Made by a program: the position numbers
Assembly (NCBI RefSeq): GCF_022846255.1
Contig: NZ_AP025682.1
Reading direction: 5' to 3' (one strand)
DNA: 64,000 nucleotides
Origin: Escherichia coli
Lineage (GTDB): Bacteria > Pseudomonadota > Gammaproteobacteria > Enterobacterales > Enterobacteriaceae
In this document: positions 48,601 through 51,600 of the stretch, one piece after another
Layout: each line of letters opens with the position of its first letter
How positions within the stretch are numbered: position 1 is the stretch's first letter

Positions 48601-51600
48601 AGCACCGCTGTATCAAGCAGGTTTTTAAGCCCGGTCTGGTAATGGCTGTTCAACCACGCGCTATGCAGCACGCGTTCGCTAGTTTTACCGGAGATATCGG
48701 TATGATTCTCCAGCACAATTTTATCCTGTGTCAGGGTGCCGGTTTTATCAGTGCACAGAATATCCATTGCGCCAAAGTTCTGAATGGCATCCAGATGTTT
48801 GACGATCACTTTCTGTTTCGACAACTTGACTGCGCCACGCGCCAGCGTCGAGGTAACAATCATCGGCAACATTTCTGGCGTTAAGCCTACCGCGACCGAA
48901 AGCGCAAACAGTGCCGCTTCCCACCAGTCACCTTTGGTGTAACCGTTGATAAGCAACACCACCGGAGCCATCACCAGCATAAAGCGAATCAGCAGCATAC
49001 TGACGCGGCTAATCCCTTGCTGAAAGGCATTCGGCTCGCTTTCCTGCTCACTAACACGCCCCGCCAGTTGACCAAACCAGGTATTGGCACCTGTGGCAAT
49101 CACCATTGCTTGTGCCGTGCCGCTCACCACGGTGGTGCCCATAAAACACAGGGTGTCGCACTCCAGCGGATTGCTGTGCTCCGGCTGGCGAGTGGTAGCG
49201 GCTTTTTCCACGGGCAGAGACTCACCGGTTAACGACGCCTGAGCGACAAACAGATCCCGCGCCTGCAAGATACGTAAATCTGCCGGGATCATATCCCCCG
49301 CCGCCAGTTTTATAATATCGCCGGGCACCAGTTGGTCTATCGGGATTTCCAGCCAGCCATTTTCACCTTTATCGTTAATTACGCGCAGTACCGTCGCGGT
49401 ATTACTGACCATCGCTTTCAGGGCATCTGCCGCTTTGGTGGAACGAGCTTCCTGAATAAAGTTCAGCAACGTAGAAATAGCGACCATTAGCGCGATAACA
49501 CCTGCGGCAAATAAATCTTCCGTGGCGTAAGAAATAGCACCAAGAATGGTGAGCAAAATATTAAAGGGGTTGCGATAGCAGACCCATAAATGTACCCACC
49601 ACGGCGACGGTTGTTGTGCGGGTAATTTATTTTCACCATGTTGTTCGCGGGCAGATTCCACTTCCGCCAGATTTAACCCTTCCGGATGGGTGTCGAACGT
49701 TTTCCACAATTCTTCTTCGGGCATCACCGCCATTTTCAGGCAATGCGCACTTAAAGAAGGCGGGACCGCCGCATTCACTGTCTGCTGCGCGCCAGGCAAT
49801 GGATCACGATGAACCAGACGGGAAGGTAAATGGCGAATGAGCCGGGTAAAAATTTCTTTAAACATAAGGAGTCCCTCCGCACTGTCTGAAACAGTACAGA
49901 AATGTCTTCAGGCGTGGCGAAGCCTTACCTGAAGGTAATAAAGCTGAGCAGGGACGTTAAAACGTCACGGCCTTACGCATCCGGTAACGCCGTGAAAAGA
50001 CGGGCTTACCGGAAAAGTTTTAATCTCCGTCGAGGGAGAGGCGTGGGATCAGGTTCCATATAACCTCCGGTAAGTGAAAAAAGCGCCGCAAATAATAAGG
50101 AGAATCCAATAATATTCGTAGCATTTATGGCGATATAATACCTGCTGGCAACTAAACCAACGATAAACCAGACTTTACCCATTGCTGAATGCACAGGTAA
50201 AGTTAGGCTCAAATAATTAAACAACACGTTATGGGACAACAGGATGCAAAATCGGCTGACCATCAAAGACATCGCGCGCTTAAGCGGCGTGGGGAAATCT
50301 ACGGTTTCCCGGGTGCTGAATAACGAAAGCGGCGTGAGCCAGCGCACGCGCGAGCGTGTTGAAGCAGTGATGAATCAGCATGGATTTTCCCCTTCCCGCT
50401 CTGCGCGCGCTATGCGTGGGCAAAGCGATAAAGTGGTCGCCATCATTGTTACCCGTCTGGATTCGTTGTCAGAAAATCTCGCCGTTCAAACCATGCTGCC
50501 AGCGTTCTATGAACAAGGTTACGATCCAATCATGATGGAAAGTCAGTTTTCCCCACAATTAGTTGCCGAACATTTGGGGGTGCTGAAACGGCGTAATATC
50601 GACGGCGTAGTGCTGTTCGGTTTTACCGGCATAACAGAAGAAATGTTAGCCCACTGGCAGTCATCGCTGGTTCTGCTGGCGCGTGACGCAAAAGGCTTTG
50701 CTTCGGTCTGTTATGACGACGAAGGGGCAATCAAGATCCTGATGCAACGGCTGTATGACCAGGGACATCGTAATATCAGCTATCTCGGCGTGCCGCACAG
50801 TGACGTGACGACCGGTAAGCGACGTCACGAAGCCTACCTGGCGTTCTGCAAAGCGCATAAACTGCATCCCGTTGCCGCTCTGCCAGGGCTTGCTATGAAG
50901 CAAGGCTATGAGAACGTAGCAAAAGTGATTACGCCTGAAACTACCGCGTTACTGTGCGCAACCGACACGCTGGCACTTGGCGCAAGTAAATACCTGCAAG
51001 AGCAACGCATCGACACCTTGCAACTGGCGAGCGTCGGTAATACACCGTTAATGAAATTCCTCCATCCGGAGATCGTCACCGTAGATCCCGGTTACGCCGA
51101 AGCTGGACGCCAGGCGGCCTGCCAGTTGATCGCGCAGGTCACCGGGCGCAGCGAACCGCAACAAATCATCATCCCCGCCACCCTGTCCTGATCGTTTCCC
51201 GAACGATAAATTGTGATCTTCGCTGTGTTTCGGGAACGTTCCCGTTTTTAAATTTTTCCGCGCAATATATTCTGCAGCCAACCAAAAATGTCATCTGCCA
51301 TGGGGCTTTATGATGAGCAAAATAAACCAAACGGATATCGATCGGTTGATTGAAATGGTCGGCGGGCGCGGCAATATTGCGACGGTGAGCCACTGTATTA
51401 CTCGCCTGCGCTTTGTCCTCAACCAACCGGCCAATGCCAGACCGAAAGAAATTGAGCAACTCCCCATGGTGAAAGGCTGTTTCACCAATGCCGGGCAATT
51501 TCAGGTGGTGATTGGCACCAACGTGGGTGATTACTATCAAGCACTGATTGCGTCAACCGGACAGGCGCAGGTTGATAAAGAGCAGGTAAAAAAAGCCGCC

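What the first reader, a model, noticed from the sequence alone, without database searches (positions are those of the whole stretch)
49866..50130. mgtA leader with intact proline-rich MgtL peptide
The 17-aa leader peptide [17 protein letters not shown] is intact upstream of mgtA. This is the known Mg2+/proline-sensing attenuation leader, reported for completeness rather than novelty.
Basis: established knowledge. Interest (0 to 1): 0.15.

Follow-up and report, generated by a model that had tools for sequence, protein, structure and literature searches.

The report
Known mgtA magnesium leader with MgtL
This is the ordinary, long-studied regulatory leader of the E. coli magnesium-importer gene mgtA, with its 17-residue MgtL peptide and all its competing RNA hairpins intact and essentially identical to laboratory strain K-12, so it is correct but not new.

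Summary
On the minus strand, an ATG at 50059 opens a 17-codon ORF (50059..50006) encoding [17 protein letters not shown]. It lies 140 nt upstream of an intact 898-aa Mg2+ P-type ATPase gene (mgtA, 49865..47169). Rfam's magnesium-sensor model RF01056 matches 50074..49959 over its full length (125.8 bits, cut-off 40). Leader nt 7-265 is base-for-base identical to E. coli K-12, where mgtL (b4702) is annotated. The 116-nt core is at least 99% identical in 5417 of 5424 matching complete E. coli genomes. Stem-loops A (a three-way junction holding mgtL) and B, and the alternative stem C, all form. In about 50 other Enterobacteriaceae leaders they are conserved, and stem B and two downstream hairpins covary. 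A PhoP box sits 12 nt upstream of the -10 hexamer. The most likely mechanism is the published one. PhoP starts transcription at low external Mg2+. Efficient MgtL translation at high cytoplasmic Mg2+ or proline favours A+B and premature termination, whereas ribosome stalling or drop-off on the EPDP/Pro codons favours stem C and read-through. The only open point, already in the literature, is whether termination in E. coli depends on Rho. Novelty: already known. Interest is very low.

The parts
50152..50170 (-). PhoP box TGGTTTATCGTTGGTTTAG. The direct repeat GGTTTA-N5-GGTTTA occupies 50169..50164 and 50158..50153.
   Evidence: Read. It matches the consensus (T/G)GTTTA-N5-(T/G)GTTTA and is 18/19 identical to the Salmonella mgtA PhoP box TGGTTTATCGTTGGTTTAA listed in PMC3335776. 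It is conserved in the alignment.
50135..50140 (-). Likely -10 hexamer TATTAT, 12 nt downstream of the second PhoP half-site.
   Evidence: Sequence. The 12-nt spacing equals 'architecture I' of PhoP-activated promoters (PMC3335776). The generic sigma-70 scan did not call it, because the promoter has no -35.
49866..50130 (-). mgtA 5' leader RNA, about 262-265 nt. In the numbering used here, nt 1 = 50130.
   Evidence: Nt 7-265 are identical to K-12 MG1655. MFE is -86.6 kcal/mol, z = -4.55. The 5' end is inferred from the 264-nt Salmonella leader and was not measured.
49959..50074 (-). Match to Rfam RF01056 (Magnesium-II / Mg sensor), covering stem-loops A and B.
   Evidence: 125.8 bits against a gathering score of 40, E = 5.5e-25, model positions 1-115 of 115, not truncated.
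50064..50068 (-). mgtL Shine-Dalgarno GGAGG (leader nt 63-67), inside the 5' strand of stem A.
   Evidence: Sequence and fold. Invariant in 53 aligned leaders.
50006..50059 (-). mgt[21 protein letters not shown] plus TAA. Pro codons 3, 5, 7 and 9 span 50053..50033. The EPDP motif is codons 2-5.
   Evidence: Annotated as mgtL in K-12 and RefSeq genomes. In 52 Enterobacteriaceae leaders the ORF is 15-17 codons and always ends at the UAA of the conserved CCGGUAA, so all length changes are in frame.
50005..50074 (-). Stem-loop A, a three-way junction enclosing mgtL. The closing helix pairs nt 57-65 with nt 118-126 (50074..50066 with 50013..50005). The inner hairpins are at 50057..50046 and 50039..50024.
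   Evidence: MFE and centroid folds. The closing helix is 98% paired across 51 distinct leaders. It is almost invariant, with one pair switching C-G to U-A in 3 sequences.
49965..49995 (-). Stem-loop B: nt 136-142 pair with 160-166, and nt 144-147 pair with 155-158.
   Evidence: Folds. 97.9% of cells are paired, and 7 of 11 pairs show compensatory double changes across 51 leaders. 0 of 500 shuffles reach the observed covariation score.
49980..50013 (-). Alternative stem C, the read-through conformation. UCCGGUAA (nt 118-125) pairs with UUACCGGA (nt 144-151), and there is an inner helix nt 128-131 with 138-141. It is mutually exclusive with A and B.
   Evidence: It becomes the MFE structure once the 5' strand of A is removed, for example -20.4 against -19.2 kcal/mol with B enforced for nt 112-175, and -28.7 against -21.0 for nt 112-200. 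The core pairs are invariant, and the structure tested (stem C plus the small GACGU/ACGUC hairpin) is 89.8% paired overall, against 27-36% when slid.
49931..49970 (-). C-rich, G-poor tract 3' of stem B (nt 161-200; nt 171-200 has 10 C and 3 G). It is a candidate rut/Rho-loading region, together with the pyrimidine-rich nt 111-135 (50020..49996) 5' of stem B.
   Evidence: Composition scan. The arrangement of stem B flanked by pyrimidine-rich rut regions is the one described for the mgtA/corA leaders in PMC11552253. Rho binding was not tested here.
49906..49934 (-). Downstream hairpin (nt 197-225). The position equivalent to the K-12 Term-seq 3' end 49 nt upstream of mgtA lies in it, at 49914.
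   Evidence: Fold. 6 of 11 pairs have compensatory changes in 40 leaders. The 3' end at K-12 4467576 has Rho score 1.56, is flagged 'significant Rho termination region: Yes', and has intrinsic-terminator score 1.46 (PMC7815308 supplement 3).
49877..49899 (-). Last hairpin (nt 232-254), which abuts and partly overlaps the mgtA Shine-Dalgarno GGAGG (49878..49874).
   Evidence: Fold. 8 of 10 pairs have compensatory changes in 40 leaders.
47169..49865 (-). mgtA, the regulated gene: an intact 898-aa Mg2+-importing P-type ATPase.
   Evidence: TIGR01524, 1609.6 bits against a cut-off of 610.75. It differs from K-12 MgtA at 5 amino acids.

Best explanation
This is the native E. coli mgtL-mgtA leader, a two-level magnesium control unit.

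(1) Inferred from sequence and the literature. PhoP, phosphorylated when PhoQ senses low external Mg2+, binds the box at 50170..50152 and starts transcription about 264 nt upstream of mgtA.

(2) Structures are shown here; their consequences come from the literature. The nascent leader chooses between two folds. If MgtL is translated through to its stop codon, the ribosome covers the 3' strand of stem A, which is also the 5' strand of stem C. This happens at high cytoplasmic Mg2+, with ample prolyl-tRNA, and with help from EF-P, bL31 and EttA. Stem-loop B then forms, or A+B form after ribosome release. The pyrimidine-rich tracts flanking B stay single-stranded, and transcription ends inside the leader. 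The major 3' end is equivalent to window 49914.

If the ribosome stalls or falls off while making the EPDP/Pro-rich N-terminus, the freed CCGGUAA strand pairs with UUACCGG to make stem C. This happens at low Mg2+, under proline limitation or under hyperosmotic stress. Stem C hides those tracts, and RNA polymerase reads into mgtA.

Direct Mg2+ stabilisation of the A+B fold probably adds to this.
For: - Identity: RF01056 scores 125.8 bits over its full length. Leader nt 7-265 is identical to K-12, where mgtL is annotated. The region is present in 5425 of 5426 complete E. coli genomes, and the 116-nt core is >=99% identical in 5417 of 5424. mgtA downstream is intact.
- Anatomy: A and B are the MFE fold. 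C becomes the MFE fold when the 5' arm of A is unavailable. The same heptamer UUACCGG occurs in the 5' arm of A and in the 5' arm of B, and both compete for CCGGUAA, which contains the mgtL stop codon.
- Comparative: 52 Enterobacteriaceae leaders found by pattern scan all have a 15-17 codon ORF followed by an mgtA-like ORF (about 900 aa where the fetched DNA is long enough), typically 183-200 nt after the mgtL ATG. 15 of 15 tested carry RF01056, whereas 0 of 3 chance hits do. Stem B and the two downstream hairpins covary. The ORF frame is preserved through 3- and 6-nt indels. In the Rfam consensus, the variable positions within mgtL are the third codon positions.
- Promoter: the PhoP box is 18/19 identical to the Salmonella one and has the canonical 12-nt spacing.
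- Mechanism from the literature: PMC11552253, PMC12360218, PMC11282234, PMC10085680, and Term-seq with bicyclomycin in K-12.
Against: - Nothing speaks against the identification.
- On mechanism, ChIP with the Rho R66S mutant gave a Rho termination score of 1.0 for E. coli mgtA, and the authors suggest E. coli may not use Rho here (PMC5499598; repeated in PMC11552253 and PMC12360218).
- Whether Mg2+ is sensed by the RNA, by the translating ribosome, or by both is stated to be unresolved.
- Stem A and the core of stem C are almost invariant, so covariation neither supports nor contradicts them.
- My comparative set was selected with a pattern that fixes the first nine MgtL residues. It therefore cannot itself demonstrate conservation of that motif.
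- The transcription start was not verified.
Confidence: 0.93

Rival explanations
1. A pure Mg2+ riboswitch. The leader RNA itself binds Mg2+ and switches between A+B and C, and MgtL translation is dispensable for Mg2+ sensing.
For: The Rfam family is defined as a magnesium-responsive RNA. [quoted passage not shown] Single-molecule work shows Mg2+ (2 to 20 mM) raising Rho termination on the naked template (PMC10085680).
Against: The ORF frame is preserved through indels in 52 of 52 leaders, and third-codon positions are the variable ones in the Rfam consensus. This indicates selection on translation. Published genetics show that the mgtL Pro and acidic codons, bL31 and EttA control mgtA expression. 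The two modes are not mutually exclusive.
Confidence: 0.2
2. Same leader, but in E. coli the premature stop is not caused by Rho. It would instead be another termination route or RNA decay, differing from Salmonella.
For: The Rho R66S ChIP-qPCR termination score is 1.0 for E. coli mgtA, although RNAP occupancy falls along the gene (PMC5499598). Reviews flag that the mechanism 'may not be conserved in E. coli'.
Against: In K-12, whose leader sequence is identical, a Term-seq 3' end 49 nt upstream of mgtA lies in a significantly bicyclomycin-sensitive region (Rho score 1.56) and has a low intrinsic-terminator score of 1.46. No intrinsic terminator is predicted in the leader. C-rich, G-poor tracts flank stem B as in Salmonella. 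The authors themselves note that R66S may simply not affect this terminator.
Confidence: 0.2
3. MgtL is a functional small protein acting in trans, rather than a cis-acting sensor of translation.
For: Only that the ORF is conserved and annotated.
Against: The C-terminal half is highly variable in sequence and length ([28 protein letters not shown] and others). The recurrent terminal R (CGG), often preceded by F, is encoded by the RNA-constrained stem strand UUCCGGUAA. The published data describe cis effects.
Confidence: 0.03
4. A chance short ORF in an ordinary intergenic spacer.
For: Short ORFs are common, and several mechanical ORFs overlap the region.
Against: Rfam E = 5.5e-25. The leader has zero substitutions against K-12, whereas the neighbouring CDS differs by 3.1%. 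There is covariation in stem B and the downstream hairpins. Folding z = -4.55.
Confidence: 0.005

Closest known systems
E. coli K-12 mgtL (b4702) - mgtA (b4242) leader
   Same: [quoted passage not shown] The gene order treB-treR / mgtL-mgtA / ridA-pyrI-pyrB is the same.
   Different: There is one substitution in the leader (window 50125, nt 6, A here and G in K-12), one in the promoter spacer (50148) and four nearer treR. MgtA differs at 5 of 898 residues. These are ordinary strain polymorphisms. The 378-nt allele is 100% identical to Nissle 1917 and many other strains.
Salmonella enterica mgtA leader (Mg2+ sensor, MgtL; the experimentally defined prototype)
   Same: The architecture is the same: PhoP box (18/19 identical), a leader of about 264 nt, mgtL inside the three-way junction stem A, stems B and C, two downstream hairpins, and an identical 194-nt distance from the mgtL ATG to the mgtA ATG.
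   Different: The Salmonella subspecies sampled here have MDPEPTPLPRWR(I/V)FLFR instead of [17 protein letters not shown]. The E. coli 5' segment is 2 nt shorter. Rho dependence is established for Salmonella and disputed for E. coli.
corA leader with the corL uORF (E. coli and Salmonella)
   Same: It works alike: a uORF inside a three-way junction stem A, alternative stems, stem B flanked by pyrimidine-rich rut regions, and repression at high Mg2+ through uORF translation (PMC11552253).
   Different: It has a different sequence family, a constitutive promoter with no PhoP box, and a corL with a single proline. It is not homologous at the sequence level, and it was not compared here.
Classical amino-acid attenuators (trpL, hisL, leuL) and tnaC
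   Same: A leader peptide whose translation speed selects between competing RNA hairpins. As with tnaC, the output is control of Rho access.
   Different: There is no intrinsic terminator hairpin followed by a U-run in this leader. The signal is Mg2+ and proline acting on ribosome stability at acidic/Pro codons, rather than a run of codons for the pathway's own amino acid.

Membership tests
Rfam RF01056 (Magnesium-II / Mg sensor, mgtA leader RNA) | Covariance-model score at or above the curated gathering score, over the full model | tested here: met
   125.8 bits against 40, E = 5.5e-25, model positions 1-115 of 115, no truncation.
Rfam RF01056 (Magnesium-II / Mg sensor, mgtA leader RNA) | Stem-loops A (three-way junction) and B can form | tested here: met
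   Both are in the MFE and centroid structures. Across 51 leaders the A closing helix is 98% paired. B is 97.9% paired, with 7 of 11 covarying pairs.
Rfam RF01056 (Magnesium-II / Mg sensor, mgtA leader RNA) | A mutually exclusive alternative stem C, formed between the 3' arm of A and the 5' arm of B | tested here: met
   It is the MFE structure of nt 106-175, 112-175, 112-200 and 112-265 when the 5' arm of A is absent. The tested structure (stem C plus the small GACGU/ACGUC hairpin) is 89.8% paired across leaders. The core pairs are invariant, so there is little covariation.
Rfam RF01056 (Magnesium-II / Mg sensor, mgtA leader RNA) | Located in cis, upstream of and on the same strand as a Mg2+-transporting P-type ATPase gene | tested here: met
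   The leader ends at 49866. mgtA (49865..47169, minus strand) matches TIGR01524 at 1609.6 bits.
Rfam RF01056 (Magnesium-II / Mg sensor, mgtA leader RNA) | The RNA conformation and the downstream transcription respond to Mg2+ | not testable with these tools
   This needs structure probing, reporter assays or in vitro transcription. Published for the identical K-12 sequence and for the Salmonella sequence.
MgtL leader peptide | A 17-codon ORF with the MgtL sequence, an ATG start preceded by a Shine-Dalgarno, lying inside stem-loop A | tested here: met
   [17 protein letters not shown] at 50059..50006. GGAGG lies 4 nt before the ATG. The DNA is identical to annotated K-12 mgtL.
MgtL leader peptide | Acidic/proline N-terminal motif (E/D-P-D/E-P, with Pro at codons 3, 5, 7 and 9) | tested here: met
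   E2 P3 D4 P5 T6 P7 L8 P9. The EPDP motif is the one shown to destabilise ribosomes (PMC11282234).
MgtL leader peptide | The stop codon is embedded in the strand shared by stems A and C, so that ribosome position decides the fold | tested here: met
   UAA is nt 123-125, within UCCGGUAAG, which pairs in A (nt 118-126) or in C (nt 118-125). CCGGTAA is invariant in 53 sequences.
MgtL leader peptide | The ORF is actually translated, and its translation alters mgtA expression | not testable with these tools
   Indirect support only: the frame is preserved through 3- and 6-nt indels in 52 of 52 leaders. Direct evidence is in the literature for K-12.
PhoP-activated promoter, architecture I (class II) | A single direct-orientation PhoP box (T/G)GTTTA-N5-(T/G)GTTTA about 12 nt upstream of the -10 hexamer, replacing a -35 | tested here: met
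   GGTTTA-TCGTT-GGTTTA at 50169..50153, a 12-nt spacer, and TATTAT at 50140..50135. The criteria and the Salmonella mgtA box are from PMC3335776. PhoP binding itself was not tested.
Rho-dependent leader terminator | A C-rich, G-poor unstructured rut region upstream of a pause/termination site, with termination relieved by Rho inhibition | tested here: inconclusive
   C-rich tracts flank stem B, with 10 C against 3 G in nt 171-200. K-12 data conflict: a bicyclomycin-sensitive 3' end at the equivalent of 49914, against a Rho R66S score of 1.0.
Classical intrinsic-terminator attenuator (trp type) | A G+C-rich terminator hairpin followed by a U-run within the leader | tested here: not met
   The terminator scan found none on the minus strand between 49866 and 50130. 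Stem B is followed by only four U (ACGUUUUAAC), and Salmonella lacks even that.

The most novel reading that the evidence does not exclude
The E. coli version of this leader may differ mechanistically from the Salmonella prototype in one of two ways. Either it terminates without Rho, as one ChIP study suggests, or it has an extra translational layer. In the second case the nearly invariant box GUCCCU (49955..49950) would pair with AGGGAC over the mgtA Shine-Dalgarno (49876..49871). That pairing is 95% paired in 40 leaders but shows no covariation, and I did not find it described in the papers I could read.
Probability: 0.15. Interest if true: 0.3.

Novelty: already known. Interest (0 to 1): 0.05.

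Why it matters
It matters little beyond correct annotation. The element is a textbook example of a leader that combines promoter control (PhoP/PhoQ), RNA folding and translation of a tiny peptide to set magnesium import. This window carries the standard, intact species-wide allele. Its main use is as a positive control: the first-stage reader recognised a 17-codon leader peptide from raw sequence and placed the leader boundaries to within a few bases. The only live scientific question it touches is already posed in the literature and cannot be answered from sequence. That question is whether E. coli uses Rho here, and how much of the Mg2+ signal is read by the RNA and how much by the ribosome.

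Tried and rejected
1. NCBIfam scan of MgtL. The peptide is below the 20-residue minimum, so I submitted it duplicated. There was no hit. This is not a valid test and was disregarded.
2. Modelling a stalled ribosome by forbidding pairing only in its roughly 30-nt footprint. ViennaRNA still closed stem A around the 'ribosome', which is sterically meaningless. I replaced this by folding only the RNA 3' of the ribosome.
3. The generic sigma-70 promoter scan did not call the mgtA promoter. This is expected for a PhoP class II promoter without a -35. The promoter was identified by the PhoP box instead.
4. The primary mechanism papers were requested by PMC id and are not held. These are Park 2010 (PMC2967377), Zhao 2011 (PMC3102267), Gall 2016 (PMC5206563) and Hollands 2014 (PMC4024889). 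Their content is cited only through later open papers that summarise them.
5. The exact E. coli transcription start. The supplement of PMC11282234 did not yield the primer sequences, so the 5' end stays inferred at 50127-50130.
6. Conservation of the M(E/D)P(D/E)PTPLP motif cannot be claimed from my genome scan, because the search pattern imposed it. I rely on the Rfam consensus and the literature for that point.
7. Other mechanical ORFs overlapping the leader were rejected as genes. These are a 113-aa GTG-started ORF that merely extends the mgtL frame upstream, a 53-aa plus-strand ORF at 49902..50063, and others. They have no annotation in 5425 genomes, and the region is explained by the RNA element.
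Full report
**What is in the sequence.** The feature lies on the minus strand. Read in that orientation, the interval 50130..49866 is the spacer between a promoter region and a large ORF at 49865..47169. 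That ORF encodes an 898-aa protein that matches the Mg2+-translocating P-type ATPase equivalog TIGR01524 at 1609.6 bits, against a cut-off of 610.75. It differs from K-12 MgtA at only 5 residues. An ATG at 50059 is preceded by GGAGG and opens a 17-codon frame ending with TAA at 50006. Divergently upstream lies treR at 50244..51191 on the plus strand (TIGR02405, 590.7 bits). This gives the K-12 gene order treB-treR / mgtL-mgtA / ridA-pyrI-pyrB.

**Is it more than chance?** A 17-codon ORF alone means nothing, but the surrounding RNA is unmistakable.
- Rfam's magnesium-sensor family RF01056 matches 50074..49959 (-) over all 115 model positions at 125.8 bits, against a gathering score of 40, with E = 5.5e-25.
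- The 265-nt leader folds at -86.6 kcal/mol, z = -4.55 against dinucleotide shuffles, and 0 of 200 shuffles fold as well.
- The 378-nt treR-mgtA intergenic region occurs in 5425 of 5426 complete E. coli genomes. It is 100% identical to many of them, Nissle 1917 among them, and has 'mgtL: mgtA regulatory leader peptide MgtL' annotated under the match.
- The 116-nt core is at least 99% identical in 5417 of 5424 genomes.
- Against K-12 MG1655 there are six substitutions in 391 aligned bases. All lie at or upstream of leader nt 6, at window 50233, 50232, 50201, 50195, 50148 and 50125. Leader nt 7-265 is therefore identical to the experimentally studied E. coli sequence.
- The adjacent mgtA coding sequence differs from K-12 at 83 of 2697 nt. 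At that rate, zero changes in 259 nt has a probability of about 3e-4, so the leader is under tighter constraint than the gene it controls.

**Anatomy.** I number the leader from 50130 = nt 1.
- In the minimum-energy and centroid folds, nt 57-65 (CUUACCGGA) pair with nt 118-126 (UCCGGUAAG). This closes a three-way junction, stem-loop A (50074..50005), which contains the whole mgtL ORF, its Shine-Dalgarno in the 5' arm, and its stop codon in the 3' arm.
- Stem-loop B is nt 136-166 (49995..49965).
- The heptamer UUACCGG occurs twice, in the 5' arm of A and in the 5' arm of B. Both copies compete for the single CCGGUAA.
- When the 5' arm of A is withheld, as when a ribosome sits inside the junction, the best fold switches to stem C. 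In stem C, nt 118-125 pair with nt 144-151, with an inner helix of nt 128-131 with nt 138-141 (50013..49980). This destroys B. The energies are -20.4 against -19.2 kcal/mol for nt 112-175, and -28.7 against -21.0 for nt 112-200.
- When the region around the stop codon is covered as well (nt 127-175 alone), B returns.
- Two further hairpins follow, at nt 197-225 and nt 232-254. The second runs into the mgtA Shine-Dalgarno at 49878..49874.
- C-rich, G-poor tracts lie over the Pro codons and on both sides of stem B, for example 10 C against 3 G in nt 171-200.
- No intrinsic terminator is predicted in the leader.

**Promoter.** TGGTTTATCGTTGGTTTAG at 50170..50152 is a canonical PhoP box, a direct repeat of GGTTTA spaced by 5 nt. 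It is 18/19 identical to the Salmonella mgtA box and sits 12 nt upstream of TATTAT (50140..50135). This is the 'architecture I' class II layout described for mgtA (PMC3335776). The transcription start was not measured. The Salmonella leader is 264 nt, and the alignment shows the E. coli 5' segment to be 2 nt shorter.

**Comparative evidence.** One scan of 100,044 species genomes with the degenerate pattern ATGGANCCNGANCCNACNCCNYTNCC returned 57 loci.
- Fifty-two of the loci are Enterobacteriaceae: Escherichia, Salmonella, Citrobacter, Enterobacter, Kosakonia, Leclercia, Atlantibacter, Franconibacter and others.
- In these 52 the match starts a 15-17 codon ORF. An mgtA-like ORF follows downstream, about 900 aa where the fetched DNA is long enough, typically 183-200 nt after the mgtL ATG.
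- The other five loci, from Actinomycetota, Alphaproteobacteria and Opitutaceae, lie inside long unrelated frames and are the expected chance hits.
- RF01056 was found in 15 of 15 enterobacterial loci tested and in 0 of 3 chance loci.
- On a 53-sequence alignment, the A+B structure is 94.6% paired, against 36-48% when partners are slid. Stem B has compensatory double changes at 7 of 11 pairs, and no shuffle reaches the observed covariation.
- The closing helix of A and the core of C are invariant. This is what a three-way competition for one strand predicts, but it gives no covariation signal.
- The two downstream hairpins covary at 6 of 11 and 8 of 10 pairs.
- The MgtL C-terminal half varies freely in sequence and in length. 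Yet every ORF ends at the UAA of the invariant CCGGUAA, so all indels are multiples of three. The recurrent terminal R, often preceded by F, is simply the translation of the RNA-constrained UUCCGGUAA.
- In the Rfam consensus, which is independent of my pattern, the variable positions inside mgtL are the third codon positions.
- Caveat: my pattern fixed the first nine residues, so this set cannot itself prove conservation of that motif.

**How it most likely works.** The structural alternatives are shown here. The functional consequences are taken from the literature on the identical K-12 sequence and on the Salmonella homologue.
- Low external Mg2+ activates PhoQ/PhoP, which fires the promoter.
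- Within the leader, efficient translation of MgtL at high cytoplasmic Mg2+ favours the A+B (OFF) fold. The pyrimidine-rich tracts around B are then exposed and transcription stops before mgtA.
- At low Mg2+, or when proline is limiting, ribosomes stall or dissociate on the EPDP/Pro-rich start of MgtL. Stem C (ON) forms and transcription continues (PMC11552253; PMC12360218).
- In E. coli, ribosome drop-off at EPDP is counteracted by bL31 and by the ABC-F factor EttA. Loss of EttA raises MgtA about threefold (PMC11282234).
- In K-12, Term-seq finds 3' ends at positions equivalent to window 50000 (just 3' of stem A) and window 49914 (49 nt upstream of mgtA). The second lies in a significantly bicyclomycin-sensitive region (Rho score 1.56) and has a low intrinsic-terminator score of 1.46 (PMC7815308 supplements).

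**What remains unsettled, in the literature and not through this window.**
- ChIP with the Rho R66S mutant gave a termination score of 1.0 for E. coli mgtA. This led to the statement that Rho dependence 'may not be conserved in E. coli' (PMC5499598). That conflicts with the bicyclomycin data above.
- It is also 'still not fully understood' whether Mg2+ is read by the RNA directly or through translation. In vitro, Mg2+ alone modulates Rho termination on the Salmonella template.
- I treat these as rival sub-mechanisms within one known system.

**Comparison with known systems and verdict.** The element passes every sequence-testable membership criterion for RF01056, for MgtL and for a PhoP architecture-I promoter. 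It fails the criterion for a classical intrinsic-terminator attenuator, as expected. The Rho criterion is inconclusive. The window carries the standard E. coli allele with no disruption. The novelty class is 'already known', and interest is about 0.05.

**Seen in passing.** These points are unrelated to the finding.
- The window's first ~21 kb lies beyond tRNA-Leu(CAA) (21030..21114, minus strand).
- It contains an ~18-kb island bracketed by an 18-nt direct repeat of the tRNA 3' end, at 2946..2963 and 21036..21053.
- The island carries three tyrosine recombinases, a relaxase, an Eco57I-like N6-methyltransferase, and an overlapping 769-aa protein with two GHKL ATPase domains.
- Only one of 5426 complete E. 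coli genomes holds most of it.

Noticed in passing
window 2946..21053 (att repeats at 2946..2963 and 21036..21053; tRNA-Leu(CAA) at 21030..21114, minus strand): An ~18-kb genomic island is integrated at the leuX tRNA and bracketed by an 18-nt direct repeat of the tRNA 3' end (CGAAGGCCGGACTCGAAC). It carries three tyrosine recombinases (19593..20840, 16700..17905 and 15385..16710, all minus strand) and a relaxase (10185..11372, plus strand). Only 1 of 5426 complete E. coli genomes (TUM11353) holds at least 80% of window 1-21000.
   Followed up: partly
window 3686..9506 (+): Inside the island, an Eco57I-like N6 DNA methyltransferase (3686..5371; PADLOC MTase_II, 298.7 bits) overlaps by 8 nt a 769-aa protein (5364..7673). 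That protein has an N-terminal HATPase_c_3 domain and a C-terminal HATPase_c (GHKL) domain, and RefSeq calls it 'sensor histidine kinase'. Two ORFs follow (7642..8763 and 8763..9506) with no Pfam or PADLOC hit. This may be a methylase-linked defence module, and it did not match a complete known system.
   Followed up: partly
window 547..2818: Just outside the island's far repeat lie a WYL-domain protein (547..1440, plus strand) and a 289-aa P4-type integrase fragment (1949..2818, minus strand). The fragment has the Arm-binding and central domains but no catalytic-domain hit. It looks like the remnant of an older leuX island displaced by the new insertion.
   Followed up: no
window 32129..32323 (-): A strong Rfam hit to Ysr276, a Yersinia antisense sRNA family (175.8 bits, full length). 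It lies antisense inside a 503-aa plus-strand ORF (31571..33082) that sits where pepA would be by K-12 gene order. The hit probably reflects conservation of the coding sequence rather than an independent RNA gene.
   Followed up: no
window 33157..33232 (-) and 60250..60327 (-): Two matches to naRNA4 (REP-element-derived nucleoid-associated RNA), at 75.4 and 82.4 bits. These are ordinary E. coli REP repeats in intergenic positions.
   Followed up: no
window 49955..49950 and 49876..49871 (-): The nearly invariant box GUCCCU, just 3' of stem B, is predicted to pair with AGGGAC, which overlaps the mgtA Shine-Dalgarno. The pairing is 94.9% paired in 40 enterobacterial leaders, but both sides are conserved, so there is no covariation. 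It could be an anti-SD element or merely two independently conserved motifs. I did not find it discussed in the papers I could read.
   Followed up: partly
window 50000 and 49914 (-), equivalent to K-12 4467490 and 4467576: Published K-12 Term-seq 3' ends map to leader nt 131 and nt 217. Nt 131 is 5 nt past stem A and the mgtL stop codon, just before a U4 run. Nt 217 is inside the nt 197-225 hairpin. The first implies an abundant short mgtL-only RNA of about 131 nt, whose origin (termination or trimming back to stem A) I did not pursue.
   Followed up: partly
window 50085..50122 (-), leader nt 9-46: The 5'-most predicted hairpin of the leader is not conserved. E. whittamii lacks 12 nt of it, Kosakonia lacks the region altogether, and the sequence is variable in other genera. 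It is probably not part of the sensor.
   Followed up: no
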